From: an uncultured Candidatus Saccharibacteria bacterium
GTDB taxonomy: Bacteria > Patescibacteriota > Dojkabacteria > B142 > OLB20
Length of the DNA: 35,042 nt
Direction: 5' to 3'
Assembly (NCBI GenBank): GCA_964653475.1
Contig: CAZZFI010000002.1
Coordinates: 1 to 35,042 of the forward strand
Shown: positions 4,404 to 34,759 of the stretch, piece after piece
How positions within the stretch are numbered: position 1 is the stretch's first letter
Layout of the letters: each line of letters opens with the position of its first letter
The notes under the pieces: model-generated
Database searches by the model: none
Told to the model about the DNA's origin: nothing
The model's input: the letters and a program-made list of their open reading frames with translations, nothing else
Made by a program: the position numbers and the translations under genes

Positions 4404-4988
4404 ATGAAAATCGAACGACCTCAATCAAAACAACCTATCCCTCCTCATGCAAAGCGGGTTTTTAAAGGTGTCATGTTTGATGTTTACCAGTGGGAACAGA
4501 AAATGTTTGATGGTACTACACAGATTTTTGAGAAGATTAAGCGACCAGATACGGTTATAACTTTTCCAGTGCTAGATAGCGGCAAAATTCTTCTAAATAG
4601 ACAAGAGCAACCGGGAAAGAAAACTTTTATAGGAGGTTTTGGAGGAAGAGTTGAAGAGGGGGAAAACATAATGAAGGCGGCAGAAAGAGAACTTAGAGAA
4701 GAAAGTGGTTATGAAACCGATAATTTTACTTTATGGAAGTCTTTACAACCATTGAGCAAAGTCGAGTGGGCAGTGTTTGTCTTTGTAGCAAGTGGTCTAA
4801 AGAAAGTTAGTGATCTATCCCTTGACTCTGGAGAAAAGATTGAGATCTTGGAAGTGGACTTTGATGAATTTCTGGAAATTGCTCTAAGTCCAGATTTTAG
4901 CGAGGTTGAGATATATCGTGATGTAGTTGACGCCGTAATGGACGAGAAAAAGAAAGAGGATCTGAAGAAATTGTTTGGGGTTAACTAA
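4404..4988 (+). CDS. NUDIX hydrolase
   Basis: Nudix box GGRVEEGENIMKAAERELREESGY. The start abuts the stop of the upstream gene. Confidence 0.9.
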   Translation: MKIERPQSKQPIPPHAKRVFKGVMFDVYQWEQKMFDGTTQIFEKIKRPDTVITFPVLDSGKILLNRQEQPGKKTFIGGFGGRVEEGENIMKAAERELREESGYETDNFTLWKSLQPLSKVEWAVFVFVASGLKKVSDLSLDSGEKIEILEVDFDEFLEIALSPDFSEVEIYRDVVDAVMDEKKKEDLKKLFGVN

Positions 4989-5218
4989 GGAGCTTGCCCG
5001 TATTGGCAAACTTTACCCATCAGGGGGCAATCGCGACAAATCTCTGAAACGATTGTCATAAGATACTCACCTCCCAGTCGTGATTCAGTGATAATTTTGA
5101 CCTTTTCTCCTCCGTCTAACTCACACCCTTTTGGTGTAGTTACATTAAACAGGTCAACGTTTATACGAACACCATTTTCAGTGTGTTCTACTGACTTGAT
5201 AACGCGCTTTTGGTACAT
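4985..5218 (-). CDS. Hypothetical small protein
   Basis: 77-aa ORF with an ATG start, co-oriented with the GreA-like gene. No recognisable motif. Confidence 0.4.
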   Translation of the reverse strand: MYQKRVIKSVEHTENGVRINVDLFNVTTPKGCELDGGEKVKIITESRLGGEYLMTIVSEICRDCPLMGKVCQYGQAP

Positions 5219-5255
5219 AAAGTCATTTTAACAGAAAAATATCGTTATTTTAAAC

Positions 5256-5525
5256 TCAATAAGGTTCCGTAGATAGGATTTTTACCTCATAGGTTACCTC
5301 AGCTTTTACAAGCACAGTGTCTCCTACATGAGCTCCTAACACGGCTTGAGCAAATGGAGTATGCTTAGAAATGGACACAACTCCCTCCGGACCTTTTTCC
5401 CCAAAATCTGATATGAAATAAGCTCCTATAGTAGGCAGCTCTTCTGGGAAATGCACTTCGACATGAACAGTCGATCCTAACTGTACACCTTCCTCTTCAA
5501 TTCCAATTTCAGGTGTCTCCTGCAA
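5256..5525 (-). CDS. GreA/GreB C-terminal-domain-like protein (stand-alone)
   Basis: VSISKHTPFAQAVLGAHVGDTVLVKA resembles the conserved IS..SP.G.AL.G...GD.V segment of the GreA C-terminal domain. At 89 aa there is no coiled-coil N-domain. Confidence 0.6.
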   Translation of the reverse strand: MQETPEIGIEEEGVQLGSTVHVEVHFPEELPTIGAYFISDFGEKGPEGVVSISKHTPFAQAVLGAHVGDTVLVKAEVTYEVKILSTEPY

Positions 5526-5623
5526 TTTTAGATATATTAAATGTGGTAAGTAACTATGGTTTCTTCTTGATTTAGATAACGTCAGTTTGCAAAACCTTCA
5601 CTTTTTTTGTTTATAATAATCTA

Positions 5624-5848
5624 ATGCGGATTAAGGTCAAAGTAAAACCAAACTCAAAACATCGAGAAGAAGTTGTTCTTCAACACGATGGGATCTTGGT
5701 TATCTACACAAAGTCTCCCGCAATTGATAATAAAGCAAATATCTCAGCGATAAGGTTATTGGCGAATTACTTTGGGGTGAGCAAATCACAGGTTGAGTTA
5801 ATCCAGGGAAACAAATCGAAGATTAAGATCTTTGAGATTGAGATGTGA
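5624..5848 (+). CDS. DUF167 (YggU-like) protein
   Basis: 74 aa. IKVKVKPNSK... followed by NKANISAIRLLANYFGVSKSQVELIQGNKSKIK matches the DUF167 pattern. Confidence 0.75.
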   Translation: MRIKVKVKPNSKHREEVVLQHDGILVIYTKSPAIDNKANISAIRLLANYFGVSKSQVELIQGNKSKIKIFEIEM

Positions 5849-5849
5849 A

Positions 5850-6380
5850 TTAACTTTTTCGTTTTTTCTTCAACTTTGAAAGTTTCTCTAACTTCGGTTC
5901 AATCACAAGTCTGCAGTATAGTTGATCTTTATTACGATTAAAGTAGTTTATGTGATAATCTTCCGCCACATAGAAATCTCGATATTCTGAAATCTTCGTA
6001 ACTATAGGAGCTTTAAATTCCTGTTTTTTATATATAGTCTTGATAAAATTCTCCGCTTCTTGTCTTTGATTTTCATCATGATAAAAAATCTCTGATCTAT
6101 ACTGAGTGCCAACATCATTACCCTGCCTGTTTAGTGTGGTTGGATCATGTGTCGCAAAAAAGACTTCAAGTAAATCTTGGTAACTTACTTTTTCGGGGTC
6201 AAACTCTATCCGGATTGCTTCGGCATGATGAGTTTCTCCAGTAGTTACTTGTTCATAGGTAGGGTTTGGAGTATTTCCACCAGAATAGCCAGGTGTGACT
6301 TTTATAACGCCATCTAGTCGTTGAAAAATTGCTTCTGTACACCAAAAACATCCTCCAGCGAAAGTTGCTAAGTCTGTAAT
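5850..6380 (-). CDS. msrA: Peptide-methionine (S)-S-oxide reductase MsrA, no canonical start codon
   Basis: I translated the minus strand by hand. The frame is uninterrupted from 6389 to the TAA stop at 5850-5852 and encodes ...ITDLATFAGGCFWCTEAIFQRLDGVIKVTPGYSGGNTPNPTYEQV..GETHHAEAIRIEFDP...THDPTTLNRQGNDVGTQYRSEIFY. The ORF track misses it because there is no ATG, GTG or TTG near the 5' end. ATT (6378-6380) sits where the ATG is expected. Confidence 0.85.
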   Translation of the reverse strand: MTDLATFAGGCFWCTEAIFQRLDGVIKVTPGYSGGNTPNPTYEQVTTGETHHAEAIRIEFDPEKVSYQDLLEVFFATHDPTTLNRQGNDVGTQYRSEIFYHDENQRQEAENFIKTIYKKQEFKAPIVTKISEYRDFYVAEDYHINYFNRNKDQLYCRLVIEPKLEKLSKLKKKRKS

Positions 6381-6436
6381 ATGAAGAAACTAATAGTTTA
6401 TATATCTATTTTAACAAATTGAGCAAATTCTTGTGT

Positions 6437-6885
6437 TTAAGTTAATGTTGCACTAAGTTCAGTCAAAAATTTATCAATCGTCTCTTGTGTTACATGAGGC
6501 ATAACAACAATGTGAGTGAATCCGTCTAATTTGTGTTTGGATACTTCATATTAAAAGAGAATAGCAGATAAACCATTTCTAGAACCTGAAATAGTGGTGT
6601 CTTTACAACCAATATACTGAACTGGTTGAGAAATCAAATCGACGTATTTCCTCTGTTTGTAATGTAACCCCAAGCCTTAGATGGTTTTATTTGATATAGT
6701 TCACAAAAAAAGTTGATGACTTCAAGTTCTTCTTCTCGTACGTTGATCGGATACTTATAGGACATATAGAGATCACCGATATTATTTATAGAGAGGTTAT
6801 AAAATTCTGTGAGCACAGAGTAATCATAATCAAGGTTTGCCAGCTTGCAGACAAAACTTACTCGAAGGGATTTATATTTTGCCAA
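6437..6885 (-). pseudogene. PLP-dependent (histidine-decarboxylase-like, group II) decarboxylase remnant
   Basis: The 83-aa N-terminal piece ends WGYITNRGNTSI*, close to the W/GY.T.GGTE.N motif. After a frame change the sequence reads ISQPVQYIGCKDTTISGSRNGLSAILF*, then ...HIVVMPHVTQETIDKFLTELSATLT*. The central ~170 aa, including the PLP-binding lysine region, is missing. Confidence 0.65.
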
Positions 6886-6979
6886 CTTGAGTTCTAGGCT
6901 TGTTGAGTTTATAGTTCAACTATAACTACTAAAGAATCGGACTATATACTAAATTTTCCTAGAGTACGAACAACTGCTT

Positions 6980-7855
6980 TTAGATCGTAAGTAAAATCAG
7001 TCCGATAAAACTCAACAAACCACCTATGATTTTCTTCCTGAGATCTTTGTATTCTTTCAAAAATACAACTCCAAGTATGACGACTAATATAGTAGATATT
7101 TGTCCAATTGACGAAACGAGAGAAGCATTGTCTGCCAATACAAATGCGTTGTAGAAAGTTAATGCGGAAACGGTATAGAGAAAAGTAAAAATAAGAATTT
7201 TCCAGATTCGATTATTTCGGAAAAATTCTGAGAATTCTAATACGGTTTTAGGTTTACTAAGCAACAGTAGAGTTCCAGGCAACAAAAATCCTATTGTCAT
7301 ATATGGGACCAACTCAAATGAATTTAAAATATACTTGTCATTAGCATTCCCTAGCCCAAAAACAATAGCCGCCAACAGAACATAAAGTTCTCCTTTCCCG
7401 AACACAAAAATTTCCTTTATCGATTTGGTATTAATTAAGACGATACTTAACAAAATCAATATTGCTCCGATAAACTGTGTGGCGTTTAAACCCTCTTTCA
7501 GGAAAACAGAAGCCACGAAAATTGTTACGACTGTTCTCAGAGAAAAAAGAACAATGAATTTTGAAATATCTACATATTTCAGAGATTTAAAACTGAGATA
7601 AGCATTGGTAGCAAAGCAAACTCCCGACAACAGCATAAATACATAGAGTTTATTCTGGATGATCACTTCAATTGTCGGGAAAGATAGGTTTTGGGTCAAT
7701 ACTGCATAAACTAGCACCATGACTCCTGAAAGTAGTTGCGTGAAAGCGGAGTATGCGAGGGGGTTTTTGTCCTCGTCTCTCATCAGAACTCTTTGAAGCA
7801 AAGCAGCTCCAGAGTAAGTTATGATCGAAATAAAAAGTACGAACATCCAATTCAT
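6980..7855 (-). CDS. EamA/DMT-superfamily transporter
   Basis: 291 aa with ~10 hydrophobic helices in two repeated halves. Confidence 0.8.
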   Translation of the reverse strand: MNWMFVLFISIITYSGAALLQRVLMRDEDKNPLAYSAFTQLLSGVMVLVYAVLTQNLSFPTIEVIIQNKLYVFMLLSGVCFATNAYLSFKSLKYVDISKFIVLFSLRTVVTIFVASVFLKEGLNATQFIGAILILLSIVLINTKSIKEIFVFGKGELYVLLAAIVFGLGNANDKYILNSFELVPYMTIGFLLPGTLLLLSKPKTVLEFSEFFRNNRIWKILIFTFLYTVSALTFYNAFVLADNASLVSSIGQISTILVVILGVVFLKEYKDLRKKIIGGLLSFIGLILLTI

Positions 7856-25996: not shown

Positions 25997-26365
25997 ATGT
26001 CAGAAGTTTATTATAGAAAGGTAGCCGGGGAAGGAAACAACAATCCTGTTGTCTTCGAATCGTTACCACTCGCAGATCTCGAGCCAGGTGACCTCATAGT
26101 GATCGAATGGCTTAAGATGGGTCGCGCTTTAGATGCTGATGGTGAACTGGTAGGGGATTTACAATTTTTCGGGCCAGGAATATATAGGGTATGCAATAAG
26201 TATTTAATACTAGATGATGGGGTATATATACTAGTTGAAGGTTGGGGACTAAATCAGATCATGAGAGAGGTGGATGATGGAAGAGAAGAGCTTTTGGATA
26301 GGTATTTCGTTAATGCGGACACTTCTATGAATAAAATCATTTACCTTGCTGAGTCGCATATGTAA
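25997..26365 (+). CDS. Hypothetical protein
   Basis: 122-aa ORF with an ATG start, lying between a divergent promoter region and typA. No family recognised. Confidence 0.5.
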   Translation: MSEVYYRKVAGEGNNNPVVFESLPLADLEPGDLIVIEWLKMGRALDADGELVGDLQFFGPGIYRVCNKYLILDDGVYILVEGWGLNQIMREVDDGREELLDRYFVNADTSMNKIIYLAESHM

Positions 26366-28343: not shown

Positions 28344-29499
<1,156 letters not shown>

Positions 29500-29518: not shown

Positions 29519-29878
29519 ATGCAAGCACTAGGATTCAACGTACTCAGTTTTTTGATATACCTGGCTCTTTTTGCAGTCTTGTATTTCGTCCTTAATAAAT
29601 TTCTTGTTCCGCCACTACTTCGACACATCGCAGAAAGGAAAAAGATCCTTAAAGATAATGTAAAACTGAAAGAAGAGATTGAAGAAAGGAAAAAAGAACT
29701 GGAAGAAGAAGCAAAGAAAAAAGAACAAGAAGTTTTGAAAAGAGCCAAAGAACAAGCAGATGAGATAATTGCTCAGGCAAACAATGAAGCAAAAGAAATC
29801 ATCGCGACAGCAAAAGACAAATCAAGAACAATGCTTGATGAGGTAAAAGAACTTATCGCGAAAAAGACAAAAAACTGA
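29519..29878 (+). CDS. atpF: F0F1 ATP synthase subunit b, unusually short (119 aa)
   Basis: One N-terminal TM helix, then a charged K/E/A-rich coiled-coil region (..ERKKILKDNVKLKEEIEERKKELEEEAKKKEQEVLKRAKEQADEIIAQANNEAKEII..). It sits between atpE and atpA. Confidence 0.85.
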   Translation: MQALGFNVLSFLIYLALFAVLYFVLNKFLVPPLLRHIAERKKILKDNVKLKEEIEERKKELEEEAKKKEQEVLKRAKEQADEIIAQANNEAKEIIATAKDKSRTMLDEVKELIAKKTKN

Positions 29879-29901
29879 CGCATAATTTTTAAAGTTCACA
29901 C

Positions 29902-31352
29902 ATGGCAGACACAAAAGGAAAAGTCATCTCGGTAGACGAAGGGGTCGTAACCCTTTCTGGACTTGAATCAGTAGGTGCTGAGGAAATAATCCAAATTCAT
30001 ATCTCTGACATACTGTATGCAGAAGCCTTGGCTTTAAACTTAGAAGAGGATCAAGTTAAAGCAGTTGTGCTCAATCATCCAGATAAAATCAAACAAGGAC
30101 AAGAAGCAACAGCTTTGGGAGAACCCGCGTTAATGAAAGTTGATGAAAATTTGCTAGGAAGAGTAGTCAATGTTTTCGGAGAACCACTGGATAGTAGCAA
30201 AGACATCGAATACGGAAGCGAAGCAAAAATGATGCCAATGGAAAAGCGCGCAGAGGGAGTTATTGCAAGAAAAGATGTCGAACGACCTCTTTCTACTGGC
30301 ATTCTAGTTATCGATTCTCTTGTTCCTGTTGGAAGAGGACAAAGACAATTGATAATTGGAGACAGACAAACTGGAAAAACTGCAATTGCAGTGGATACTA
30401 TAATTAACCAAAAAGGACAGGATTGTTTCTGTGTATACGTGGCAATCGGACAAAAAGCATCATCAGTTGCAAATATTGTCAGAAAACTCAAGGAAAAAGG
30501 TGCAATGGACTATACTGTAGTAGTTTCTGCAACTGCAAATGATCCTGCATCACAGCAATATTTGGCACCTTATGCTGGAACTGCTGTCGCTGAGTATTTC
30601 GCACAAAAGGGAAAAGACACGCTTGTTGTTTTTGACGATCTTACCAAACACGCAAATGCATATCGACAGATGTCTCTTCTTCTAAAAAGACCATCTGGCC
30701 GTGAAGCTTATCCTGGAGACGTATTTTACCTCCACTCAAGACTTTTGGAGAGAGCTTTGCAGTATTCAGATGAACTCGGGGGTGGATCAATCACAGCATT
30801 GCCAATTATCGAAACACAAGCAAATGACTTGTCAGCATACATTCCTACAAACGTTATATCTATTACAGACGGACAAATTTATCTTGATCAAGACCTTTTC
30901 AACTCAGGTCAAAAACCTGCACTTTCAGTAGGTTTGTCGGTATCTAGGGTTGGAGGTGCTGCTCAGACAAAGACTATGAAAAGCGTTGCGGGTAAAGTCA
31001 AACTTGACCTTGCTCAGTTTAGAGAATTAGCAGTTTTTGCTCAACTCGGCTCAGAGCTTGATGAAGCAACCAAAAAGCAACTTATCCGAGGAGAACATAT
31101 TACTGAAGCAGTAAAACAAGCACAGTACCAACCACTTCGAGAGCCAGACCAAGTTGTCGTAATGTTTGCAGCAAGTCAGGGGCTTCTTGATGAGTTACCA
31201 TTGAAAGAGATTGGACCATGGAAAAAACAAGTTTTGGCAACTTTCAAAACAAAATACCCAGAAATATGGGATAGACTTAATACTGGAAAAGAAAAAGTAG
31301 AAGGCGAACTTGCTGAAGAACTGACAAAAATTATTAAAGAATACATAGAATA

Positions 31353-31353
<1 letters not shown>
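29902..31353 (+). CDS. atpA: F0F1 ATP synthase subunit alpha (N-terminally short)
   Basis: GRGQRQLIIGDRQTGKTAIAVDTIINQ (Walker A), VYVAIGQKASSV, VVFDDLTKHANAYRQMSLLLKRPSGREAYPGDVFYLHSRLLERA. An in-frame TAA at 29890-29892 rules out any N-terminal extension. Confidence 0.95.
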
Positions 31354-34010
<2,657 letters not shown>

Positions 34011-34238: not shown

Positions 34239-34759
34239 ATGCTCGCAAATCTACTGCTTATTGTTATAGTCTCTCTGAAATTCCTTTTACCATTCTTTCT
34301 TATTTGGTTCCCCTTCCTAGCCGGCTGGGCGAACTTCGTACTCGATACAGTTGACGGAGATATTTTGATCCCGCTCGGACTGGAGGATTACAACTACCAG
34401 ACGATCGACAAGCTTGCGGACTATGTGACATATATCTTTATGCTGATTGTCGGCTGGAAATGGGAGATAAACAAAGAGATCAAGATCACTTTCGCAATTC
34501 GTACTATTGGACAGATCTTGTTTTTCGTAACCCGAGATGAACTGATGTTTTTTTCTTCCCAAACCTTCTCGAACCGCTATTTTTGATTTACGCGACATTG
34601 CTTTTCTTCAAGAAAAAGCAAGCCTACAAAATTTACAAAAAGTACTTTAAACTAATTTGGGCGTTCATCTTGCTGTACAAGTTCCAGGATGAACTGATCA
34701 CCCACGTGGTGAATGTAGATAGGTCAACGCTTATAAAACAACTGTTCGGAAAAAGCTAA
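34239..34759 (+). pseudogene. Multi-pass membrane protein interrupted by a frameshift at a T7 run (or an assembly/slippage artefact)
   Basis: The 115-aa ORF (34239-34586) leaves its hydrophobic pattern right after ttttttt (34548-34554). The frame entered at 34553 continues coherently as FFPNLLEPLFLIYATLLFFKKKQAYKIYKKYFKLIWAFILLYKFQDELITHVVNVDRSTLIKQLFGKS* and ends at 34759. One extra T would restore a 173-aa protein. Confidence 0.55.

What the first reader, a model, noticed from the sequence alone, without database searches (positions are those of the whole stretch)
29519..31353. F-type ATP synthase operon lacking the delta (OSCP) subunit, with matching truncations of b and alpha
The operon order is a-c-b-alpha-gamma-beta-epsilon. 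Only 23 nt separate atpF (stop at 29878) from atpA (ATG at 29902), so there is no atpH. Two other changes fit the same picture. First, subunit b is only 119 aa, against roughly 155-175 aa in typical bacteria. It ends soon after the membrane-proximal coiled coil and so lacks the C-terminal delta-binding region. Second, alpha begins MADTKGKVISVDEGVVTLSGL. The equivalent EGTIVSVSDGVIRIHGL segment in E. coli alpha starts near residue 28. The ~20 N-terminal residues that form the delta/OSCP-binding helix are therefore absent, and an in-frame TAA at 29890-29892 rules out a longer alpha. Three partners of one interface missing together argues against an annotation artefact. It implies a reduced or re-engineered peripheral stalk, or a stator component encoded elsewhere or replaced by something unrecognised.
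Basis: partly seen in the sequence, partly recalled or inferred. Interest (0 to 1): 0.7.

Follow-up and report, generated by a model that had tools for sequence, protein, structure and literature searches.

The report
ATP synthase without its delta subunit
A group of tiny uncultured bacteria (Candidatus Dojkabacteria and relatives) encodes an otherwise normal, well-conserved rotary ATP synthase with no delta/OSCP subunit, the part thought to clamp the stator to the catalytic head in all F-type enzymes. In the lineage of this window the stator arm (subunit b) is also cut to 119-121 residues.

Summary
The operon is a-c-b-alpha-gamma-beta-epsilon. Subunit b is 119 aa, 23 nt separate atpF from atpA, and no atpH/OSCP reading frame exists anywhere in the 35-kb window. 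Alpha lacks the roughly 23-residue N-terminal helix.

It is not an assembly artefact. Eight independently assembled relatives, named Candidatus Dojkabacteria by NCBI, share the same architecture, with saturated synonymous change and dN/dS of about 0.1 or less.

Related contigs show a stepwise reduction:
- Many CPR bacteria already have a short delta of 117-135 aa.
- One clade then lost the alpha N-helix while keeping that delta (L094, L095).
- Its sister clade lost delta. All 7 lineages tested lack it, and most keep a b of about 160 aa.
- Only the window's subclade and one sister lineage also lost the last ~42 residues of b.

My best reading is a working proton F-ATPase whose stator is a b2 dimer alone, bound directly to F1 through the conserved C-terminal end of b. 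I could not exclude a delta gene, or an unrecognised substitute, elsewhere in the genome. I found no published report. I class it as a new variant of a known kind, interest about 0.7.

The parts
28344..29237 (+). atpB, Fo subunit a (297 aa from TTG; relatives suggest the GTG at 28362 may be the real start). It carries the essential Arg ([13 protein letters not shown]) and a roughly 55-aa insertion in an outward-facing loop.
   Evidence: Pfam PF00119, 126.6 bits. NCBIfam TIGR01131, 111 bits against a cut-off of 102.6. Alignment of a subunits.
29272..29499 (+). atpE, Fo subunit c (75 aa from the ATG shared with relatives). The carboxylate is in FAEAIAIY. There is no Q...ES/T sodium-binding motif, so it is probably proton-specific.
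   Evidence: Pfam PF00137. TIGR01260, 57.7 bits against a cut-off of 43.95. Start chosen by comparison with L002 and L005-L008.
29519..29878 (+). atpF, subunit b, 119 aa: one transmembrane segment plus a single long helix. It lacks the C-terminal ~42 residues (the delta-binding region) of ordinary b. Its last ~35 residues (...QANxEAKxI...KS[RK]TMLDEV[KR]ELIAKK) are the best-conserved soluble part.
   Evidence: Pfam PF00430, 49.7 bits, profile positions 2-98 of 132. TIGR01144, 38.6 bits, below its 65.5 cut-off. b profile positions 4-111 of 165. AlphaFold2 gives one helix over residues 2-118, pLDDT 89. Alignments.
29879..29901 (.). The 23-nt atpF-atpA spacer, where atpH lies in ordinary operons. 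It has an in-frame TAA (29890-29892) ahead of the atpA ATG.
   Evidence: Sequence. Relatives have 0-27 nt, or an 8-nt overlap, at this junction.
29902..31353 (+). atpA, F1 alpha, 483 aa. The beta-barrel crown starts at residue 5. The ~23-residue N-terminal helix that binds delta/OSCP in other F-ATPases is absent. The P-loop GDRQTGKT is intact.
   Evidence: TIGR00962, 657 bits against a cut-off of 484, profile positions 26-498 of 503. PDB alignments. N-terminal alignment. AlphaFold2 pTM 0.84, first strand at residues 5-12.
31353..32210 (+). atpG, F1 gamma, 285 aa.
   Evidence: Pfam PF00231, 199 bits. TIGR01146, 186.9 bits, just under its 194.45 cut-off.
32212..33606 (+). atpD, F1 beta, 464 aa, with P-loop GGAGVGKT and a DELSxED-type loop.
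   Evidence: TIGR01039, 758 bits against a cut-off of 463. Pfam.
33603..34010 (+). atpC, F1 epsilon, 135 aa.
   Evidence: Pfam PF02823. TIGR01216, 72.6 bits against a cut-off of 67.25.

Best explanation
The window carries the only recognisable F1Fo operon of a Candidatus Dojkabacteria (CPR/Patescibacteria) genome. It encodes a functional proton-translocating F-type ATPase made of seven subunit types (a, c, b, alpha, beta, gamma, epsilon) with no delta/OSCP.

Proposed mechanism (inferred): the stator is a homodimer of the 119-aa b alone. Each b is a transmembrane anchor beside subunit a plus about 90 residues of continuous helix, roughly 135-140 A long. That is long enough to run up the outside of alpha3beta3 to the level of the crown, but not over its top. 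The conserved C-terminal segment of b holds F1 directly, instead of through a delta cap bound to alpha N-termini.

Shown here: this is the end state of a stepwise reduction of the peripheral stalk.
1. CPR-wide shortening of delta to 117-135 aa.
2. Loss of the alpha N-terminal helix.
3. Loss of delta.
4. Loss of the delta-binding C-terminus of b.

The organism is probably fermentative, so the enzyme may run mainly as an ATP-driven proton pump. A stator is needed in either direction.
For: Shown:
- All seven genes are intact and carry their catalytic or ion-binding motifs.
- Eight independent assemblies of the same clade (alpha 79-100% identical where measured) have the identical a-c-b(120-121)-alpha(484)-gamma-beta-epsilon layout. 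NCBI names members of this clade Candidatus Dojkabacteria.
- Synonymous sites are saturated, while pN is 0.11-0.20 for b and 0.10-0.14 for alpha. dN/dS is 0.03-0.11.
- No delta-like frame exists in the window or in about 21 kb around the operon of relatives. The same profile detects even 117-aa deltas as positive controls.
- There is no delta-like C-terminus on b, so this is not a b-delta fusion.
- In an NJ tree of alpha built without the N-terminal columns, all delta-less operons fall in one clade, group B. All 7 of its lineages that were tested lack atpH: the window clade, L098, L099, L085, L088, L090 and L100.
- The sister clade keeps a short delta.
- An exhaustive profile search of 1.84 billion representative proteins finds the 120-aa b type as a single 50% cluster. 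Its nearest relatives are 158-164-aa b subunits, which align over residues 1-110/119 and extend beyond.
- b is predicted to be one uninterrupted helix.
- The alpha crown is predicted intact, starting at residue 5.

Inferred: direct b-F1 attachment, from the strong conservation of the last ~35 residues of b and from helix length. The review PMC6131620 gives about 95 A for E. coli b residues 62-122.
Against: - No whole genome could be searched. Only about 35 kb (the window) and about 21 kb (relatives) around the operon were read, so a relocated or unrecognisably divergent delta, or a new protein doing its job, is not excluded.
- In E. coli delta is essential for assembly of b2 with F1 (PMC6131620). 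A delta-less stator therefore needs a compensating interface, which I could not identify. Only one alpha residue (C175) is specifically conserved in the delta-less clade.
- Alpha N-helix loss coexists with delta in L094 and L095, so that truncation does not argue for delta absence.
- Delta-less lineages with a ~160-aa b retain a normal-looking delta-binding region. This would also fit a delta encoded elsewhere in those lineages.
- There is no expression or biochemical data.
Confidence: 0.6

Rival explanations
1. Delta, or a non-homologous functional substitute, is encoded outside the operon. The stalk is then b2 plus an unrecognised cap protein, and the operon only looks delta-less.
For: - Only a small part of each genome was visible.
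- CPR deltas are already very divergent and short. Several score below the NCBIfam cut-off, for example L095 delta at 50 bits against a cut-off of 57.5, matching only profile positions 98-168 of 172. Further divergence could escape detection.
- Five delta-less lineages keep the C-terminal region of b that normally binds delta.
- Mitochondrial F-ATPases of ciliates, apicomplexans and euglenozoans replaced stalk subunits with unrelated proteins (titles and abstracts).
Against: - When atp operons are split, atpH stays with atpA. The alphaproteobacterial loci L041, L078 and L082 show delta directly upstream of alpha. Relocation of atpH alone would be unusual.
- In 7 of 7 group-B lineages atpF abuts or overlaps atpA.
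- In the window's subclade both known docking sites for delta are gone.
- No conserved soluble gene of unknown function accompanies the operon across lineages.
Confidence: 0.3
2. The atpF-atpA junction is an assembly or sequencing deletion, or the operon is a decaying pseudogene cluster.
For: The window assembly contains at least one homopolymer indel. The T7 run at 34546-34552 splits a conserved 172-aa membrane protein into 115-aa and 58-aa pieces, and one extra T restores it.
Against: - The same junction and the same gene lengths occur in contigs from different samples and assemblers: SRR9016298, SRR29092742, SRR8427161, SRR8427159 and four GTDB MAGs.
- They also occur in far more divergent lineages whose alpha is only 54-58% identical.
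- All genes are under strong purifying selection.
Confidence: 0.02
3. This is an accessory, laterally acquired ATPase of the N-ATPase or Mycoplasma F1-like kind, not the cell's main F1Fo.
For: N-ATPase operons also lack atpH (PMC2881411). The best alpha matches outside the clade are only about 59% identical.
Against: - The gene order is the standard atpBEF-AGDC, not atpDCQRBEFAG.
- There is no AtpQ or AtpR.
- NCBIfam alt_F1F0 models score below their cut-offs (alpha 566.6 against 750.5; beta 603.7 against 752). So do the Mycoplasma F1-like and gliding models.
- N-ATPase b is unusually long and has a delta-like C-terminus. Here b is short or normal with no delta similarity.
- Subunit c lacks the sodium-binding motif.
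- Alpha groups with other CPR alphas in the NJ tree.
Confidence: 0.05

Closest known systems
Canonical bacterial F1Fo ATP synthase (E. coli, Bacillus PS3; operon atpBEFHAGDC)
   Same: Same gene order apart from atpH. The a, c, alpha, beta and epsilon subunits reach NCBIfam equivalog cut-offs, and gamma is just below. There is a single b gene, which implies a b2 homodimer. Alpha matches solved F1 alphas at E = 1e-140 to 1e-170.
   Different: No delta/OSCP. Alpha lacks its N-terminal delta-binding helix. b is 119 aa and lacks the C-terminal delta-binding domain. In E. coli delta is essential for joining b2 to F1 (PMC6131620).
Other CPR/Patescibacteria F1Fo operons (Saccharibacteria, Parcubacteria, Microgenomates) and the sister clade (L094, L095, L096)
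   Same: Same operon. Alpha groups with them in the NJ tree. The sister clade shares the outward-loop insertion in subunit a, and L094 and L095 also share the N-truncated alpha; L096 has a full-length alpha N-terminus.
   Different: They keep a delta, though a short one of 117-148 aa. It matches the Pfam OSCP profile only from about position 55, or the TIGR01145 profile only over positions 98-168. Their b is 146-187 aa.
N-ATPase (atpDCQRBEFAG; Dibrova et al. 2010, PMC2881411)
   Same: An F-type operon with no separate atpH.
   Different: N-ATPase b is unusually long and its C-terminus aligns with delta, so part of delta is retained. It has a different gene order, extra AtpQ and AtpR, and a sodium-binding c. 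It is always a second enzyme in the genome. None of these features is present here.
Mycobacterial b-delta fusion stalk (e.g. PDB 7jg5 chain d)
   Same: A remodelled peripheral stalk within a standard operon.
   Different: There delta is fused to a b-like chain, not lost. Here the b/delta model NF009961 scores 33 bits against a cut-off of 328, and the delta profile finds nothing.
A/V-type ATPase EG peripheral stalks
   Same: A functional analogy only: coiled-coil stalks that hold the catalytic hexamer directly, with no OSCP-like cap sitting on N-terminal helices (PMC6131620).
   Different: Not homologous in architecture. EG stalks are not membrane-anchored, they end in a globular domain, and there are two or three of them per enzyme. 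The catalytic subunits here are clearly F-type.

Membership tests
Bacterial F-type (F1Fo) ATP synthase | Alpha and beta catalytic subunits of the F-type equivalog families | tested here: met
   TIGR00962, 657 bits (cut-off 484). TIGR01039, 758 bits (cut-off 463).
Bacterial F-type (F1Fo) ATP synthase | Rotor and ion path: gamma, epsilon, c with a membrane carboxylate, a with the essential arginine | tested here: met
   Pfam hits are all above their cut-offs. NCBIfam a, c and epsilon are above cut-off, and gamma scores 186.9 against 194.45. Motifs FAEAIAIY (c) and FSFRLFGN (a) were read.
Bacterial F-type (F1Fo) ATP synthase | Membrane-anchored b subunit with a C-terminal delta-binding domain | tested here: not met
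   b is present (PF00430, 49.7 bits), but it covers only profile positions 2-98 of 132 and 4-111 of 165. TIGR01144 scores 38.6, below its 65.5 cut-off.
Bacterial F-type (F1Fo) ATP synthase | Delta/OSCP subunit (PF00213 / TIGR01145) | tested here: not met
   No hit in any frame of the window or of the operon loci of relatives. Whole genomes were not searchable.
Bacterial F-type (F1Fo) ATP synthase | Alpha N-terminal helix (about residues 1-22) that docks into delta/OSCP | tested here: not met
   Alignments start at residue 26-28 of reference alphas. The AlphaFold2 model begins with a beta-strand at residue 5.
N-ATPase | Operon order atpDCQRBEFAG with AtpQ and AtpR | tested here: not met
   The order is a-c-b-alpha-gamma-beta-epsilon, with no extra small membrane genes inside the operon.
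N-ATPase | Subunits reach the NCBIfam alt_F1F0 exception models; long b with a delta-like C-terminus | tested here: not met
   alt alpha 566.6 against 750.5, alt beta 603.7 against 752, alt gamma 49 against 282. b is 119 aa with no delta similarity.
Mycoplasma F1-like X0 / gliding ATPases | Alpha- and beta-like subunits reach the MSC_0618/0619 or MMOB1660/1670 models | tested here: not met
   Scores of 341-529 bits against cut-offs of 520-850. A full Fo (a, c, b) is present.
b-delta fusion stalk (Actinobacteria) | One chain carrying both b and OSCP regions | tested here: not met
   NF009961 scores 33 bits against a cut-off of 328. The delta profile does not hit the b frame.

The most novel reading that the evidence does not exclude
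A natural F-type rotary ATPase that works with the smallest stator known: a homodimer of a 119-aa single-helix b subunit, with no delta/OSCP and no replacement, bound to the catalytic head through a new lateral interface. It would be the end point of a stepwise reduction that can be followed through living CPR lineages. It would show that OSCP/delta, regarded as universal in F-type enzymes, is dispensable.
Probability: 0.45. Interest if true: 0.85.

Novelty: new variant of a known kind. Interest (0 to 1): 0.7.

Why it matters
Delta/OSCP is treated as an obligatory part of every F-type ATP synthase. It caps F1, binds the alpha N-termini and couples the b stalk to the head. It is also a regulatory and drug-binding hub in mitochondria.

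A clade that has dispensed with it, while every other subunit stays under strong selection, offers three things:
- A natural experiment on the minimum stator needed to resist rotor torque.
- A graded series of intermediates for structural work: short delta, then no alpha N-helix, then no delta, then short b.
- A very compact seven-gene F1Fo for synthetic biology.

It also matters for annotation. Pathway-completeness tools will score these CPR genomes as having an incomplete ATP synthase, and that may be wrong.

Tried and rejected
- **Hidden delta in another frame or strand.** A six-frame search with a delta profile built from 68 operons found nothing. Rejected for the DNA available.
- **Stop-codon read-through of atpF** (TGA recoded, as in some CPR). 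This adds only 18 residues before a TAG, and TGA ends other genes here. Rejected.
- **b-delta fusion or N-ATPase.** Rejected.
- **The conserved 172-aa protein downstream of epsilon as a new stalk subunit.** It is a multi-pass membrane protein with no Pfam hit. It is syntenic only within the window's subclade and is not adjacent in L088, L090 or L100. Not supported.
- **Compensating surface on alpha.** Only one residue (C175) is specifically conserved in delta-less alphas, so there is no lead.
- **Word-indexed search with b.** It returned only 3 hits. The exhaustive profile search was needed to find the ~160-aa relatives.
- **Literature.** Seven full-text searches (CPR, Patescibacteria, Dojkabacteria or WS6 combined with ATP synthase, delta, atpH or peripheral stalk) found no description of this.
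- **Metagenome scan for orphan delta genes.** Not run. An alignment of the nearest deltas has only one invariant column, so pattern-based scanning would not be meaningful.
- **AlphaFold on a b-alpha complex.** Not possible. The tool folds single chains only.
- **Taxonomy of the delta-less lineages with a ~160-aa b.** Could not be established, because the collection gives them no names.
Full report
**1. What is in the window**

ORF listing and the raw sequence confirm the finding to the base. atpB runs 28344-29237. atpE runs 29272-29499 (75 aa from the ATG that relatives use). atpF runs 29519-29878 (119 aa, stop TGA). A 23-nt spacer follows, containing an in-frame TAA at 29890-29892. Then come atpA 29902-31353 (483 aa), atpG 31353-32210, atpD 32212-33606 and atpC 33603-34010.

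Pfam identifies each gene and finds no OSCP. NCBIfam places alpha, beta, a, c and epsilon above the curated equivalog cut-offs of the ordinary F-type families. Gamma is just under its cut-off. Subunit b is well under (38.6 against 65.5 bits) because only the first two thirds of the profile are matched.

Catalytic and ion-path motifs are intact: the P-loops, the arginine of a, and the carboxylate of c (read). Subunit c has no sodium-binding signature.

**2. The three truncations, measured**

- *Alpha.* Against solved structures, alpha residue 3-6 aligns with residue 26-30 of E. coli, Bacillus PS3, Thermotoga and other alphas. The atpA profile is matched from position 26 of 503. An AlphaFold2 model (pTM 0.84) begins directly with the first strand of the beta-barrel crown at residue 5.
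- *Subunit b.* It aligns with solved b subunits only as far as their residue 94-110 of 156-168. It covers positions 4-111 of a 165-position profile that I built from 66 b subunits of related operons. AlphaFold2 predicts a single uninterrupted helix over residues 2-118, with pLDDT 89.
- *Delta.* A delta profile built from 68 operons finds nothing in six-frame translations of the window (best E = 1.9).
- *Read-through.* Reading through the atpF TGA would add only 18 residues.

**3. Not an artefact, and who it is**

The identical alpha is on an independent short contig from another run. The closest b (72% identical, 120 aa) lies on three contigs, one of them 90 kb. All three have a-c-b(120)-alpha(484)-gamma-beta-epsilon.

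A scan of one genome per GTDB species returned four relatives with alpha 79-85% identical. Two of them are labelled Candidatus Dojkabacteria. All four have the same layout. NCBI names members of this alpha cluster Candidatus Dojkabacteria.

Between these lineages synonymous sites are saturated (pS 0.69-0.81). Meanwhile pN is 0.11-0.20 for b and 0.10-0.14 for alpha, which gives dN/dS of 0.03-0.11. The genes are therefore maintained by selection.

The last ~35 residues of b, ending KS[RK]TMLDEV[KR]ELIAKK, are the most conserved soluble stretch.

The window assembly does contain a homopolymer indel elsewhere (a T7 run at 34546-34552). The atpF-atpA junction cannot be such an error, given its conservation.

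**4. Comparison with other operons**

Of the 76 loci outside this clade fetched, 75 have a delta immediately upstream of alpha. The exception has no upstream DNA. All of them have the alpha N-terminal helix.

In most CPR lineages (Saccharibacteria, Parcubacteria, Daviesbacteria, Moranbacteria) delta is only 124-135 aa. It matches the Pfam OSCP profile only from about position 55 of 172. The N-terminal domain that normally grips the alpha helix is thus already reduced across CPR.

**5. The phenomenon is wider and stepwise**

An exhaustive profile search with the 120-aa b against 1.84 billion representative proteins found that type as a single 50%-identity cluster. Its nearest relatives are 158-164-aa b subunits that align over residues 1-110/119 and continue beyond.

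The contigs of three of these (L085, L088, L090; one contig is 368 kb) carry a-c-b(159-163)-alpha(488-495)-gamma-beta-epsilon. Only 2-27 nt separate b and alpha. There is no delta in any frame, and alpha is N-truncated.

A profile search with delta-less alphas listed about 27 further 90%-identity clusters of N-truncated alpha, 483-499 aa long.

I built an NJ tree of alpha with the N-terminal columns excluded. It gives two sister clades.

- *Group A* contains L094 (b 163 aa, delta 126 aa, N-truncated alpha), L095 (b 157 aa, delta 117 aa, N-truncated alpha) and L096 (b 173 aa, delta 148 aa, full-length alpha).
- *Group B* contains the window clade and every delta-less operon. Three more of its lineages that I looked up also lack delta: L098 (b 120 aa, alpha 484 aa), L099 (b 161 aa, overlapping alpha) and L100 (b 166 aa, overlapping alpha).

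The delta profile detected the 117-148-aa deltas of group A as positive controls and found nothing in group B.

A 30-70-aa insertion in an outward-facing loop of subunit a is shared by groups A and B and is absent from other CPR. It is an independent marker of their common ancestry. Two conserved cysteines in the insertion are present in all group-B sequences and L095.

The most parsimonious order of events is therefore:
1. Short delta (CPR-wide).
2. Loss of the alpha N-helix (groups A and B, with L096 and P0282 as exceptions or reversals in this rough tree).
3. Loss of delta (group B).
4. Loss of the last ~42 residues of b (the window clade plus the L098 lineage, which share the same truncation point).

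**6.

The three features are real. However, they were not lost together, and they are not mutually diagnostic. An alpha without the helix can coexist with delta. Most delta-less lineages keep a b whose C-terminal region still looks like an ordinary delta-binding region.

The window's lineage is the extreme case, in which delta and both of its known docking sites are all missing. That is where true absence of delta is most credible.

**7. Mechanism**

Established knowledge (review PMC6131620):
- E. coli b has membrane, tether, dimerisation (residues 62-122, about 95 A) and C-terminal delta-binding domains.
- Delta binds alpha at the top of F1.
- Delta is essential for assembling b2 with F1.

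In the window protein, about 90 soluble helical residues give roughly 135-140 A. By alignment the chain ends near E. coli b residue 111. That is alongside the upper part of alpha3beta3 rather than over its top.

I therefore propose (inference) that b2 alone forms the stator and binds the outer surface of alpha/beta directly through its conserved C-terminal segment. This is functionally comparable to the way A/V-type EG stalks hold the hexamer without an OSCP-like cap.

I could not find a compensating surface. Only one alpha residue (C175) is specifically conserved in the delta-less clade.

The main rival is a delta, or a non-homologous substitute, encoded elsewhere. No tool here could read whole genomes of the clade.

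**8. Comparison with known systems and novelty**

- N-ATPases also lack atpH. They keep a delta-like C-terminus on an unusually long b, have a different gene order, carry AtpQ and AtpR, and are second enzymes (PMC2881411). None of this applies here.
- Mycobacterial b-delta fusions and Mycoplasma F1-like ATPases are excluded by profile scores.
- Seven literature searches found no description of delta-less or short-delta F-ATPases in CPR bacteria.

I class this as a new variant of a known kind. If the seven-subunit enzyme is shown to be complete and coupled, it would be a notable result for the ATP synthase field.

**9. Limits**

- The trees are NJ on BLOSUM distances, without support values.
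- The taxonomy of the ~160-aa-b lineages is unknown.
- Genome-wide absence of delta is untested.

Noticed in passing
window 34239-34759 (T7 run at 34546-34552): A conserved 172-aa multi-pass membrane protein of unknown function (no Pfam hit) lies just downstream of atpC in the window and in L002-L004, and within a few kb in L005-L007. In the window it is split into 115-aa and 58-aa ORFs by a frameshift in a T7 run. One extra T restores the sequence ...DELMFFFFPNLLEPLFLIYATLL of relatives. L002 has a different split (53 + 106 aa). These are probably homopolymer sequencing errors, or possibly real frameshifts.
   Followed up: partly
window 28680-28870 (within atpB); L002, L006, L088, L090, L095, L099, L100: Subunit a carries a 30-70-aa acidic insertion in the loop between the second and third membrane helices. 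By analogy with E. coli a this loop faces outward. The insertion has two conserved cysteines ([14 protein letters not shown]) in the delta-less clade and in L095. It is present in the delta-less clade and its sister clade and absent from other CPR and from Propionispira. Its function is unknown.
   Followed up: partly
L009, L011, L014, L021, L023, L038, L059, L071 and about 55 other loci (gene directly upstream of alpha): Most CPR/Patescibacteria operons have a delta of only 124-135 aa. It matches the OSCP profile only from about position 55 of 172, so it lacks roughly the first three helices of the alpha-binding N-domain. Their alphas still have the N-terminal helix. I found no published mention.
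   Followed up: partly
L094 5628-7479; L095 5648-7476: Two lineages combine an N-truncated alpha (in-frame stops just upstream of the start) with a retained very short delta (126 and 117 aa). The 117-aa delta matches only the C-terminal domain of the delta model (profile positions 98-168 of 172). In these organisms delta cannot be using the canonical alpha-helix docking.
   Followed up: partly
L005 (CAYQRB010000003.1); L009, L014, L015, L020, L022, L024, L025, L077: The record labels look unreliable. L005 is titled 'uncultured Candidatus Saccharibacteria', but its alpha is 85% identical to the window's and it shares the Dojkabacteria-type operon and synteny (TypA upstream). Several MAGs titled 'uncultured Gammaproteobacteria' have CPR-type operons (short delta) and group with Daviesbacteria in the alpha tree.
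   Followed up: no
window 4988-6980: A 2-kb stretch has no ORF of 90 aa or longer. It holds only short ORFs (40-89 aa) on both strands, and two adjacent minus-strand fragments (6551-6673 and 6634-6885) look like pieces of one gene. Possible explanations are gene remnants or more frameshift errors. Rfam finds no RNA there.
   Followed up: no
window 25997-26365; L006 7278-8307; L007 8047-8295; L008 1010-1294: Small (82-122 aa) proteins of unknown function lie just upstream of the atp operon or of typA in the window clade. They vary in number and sequence between relatives. No Pfam hit for the window copy.
   Followed up: no
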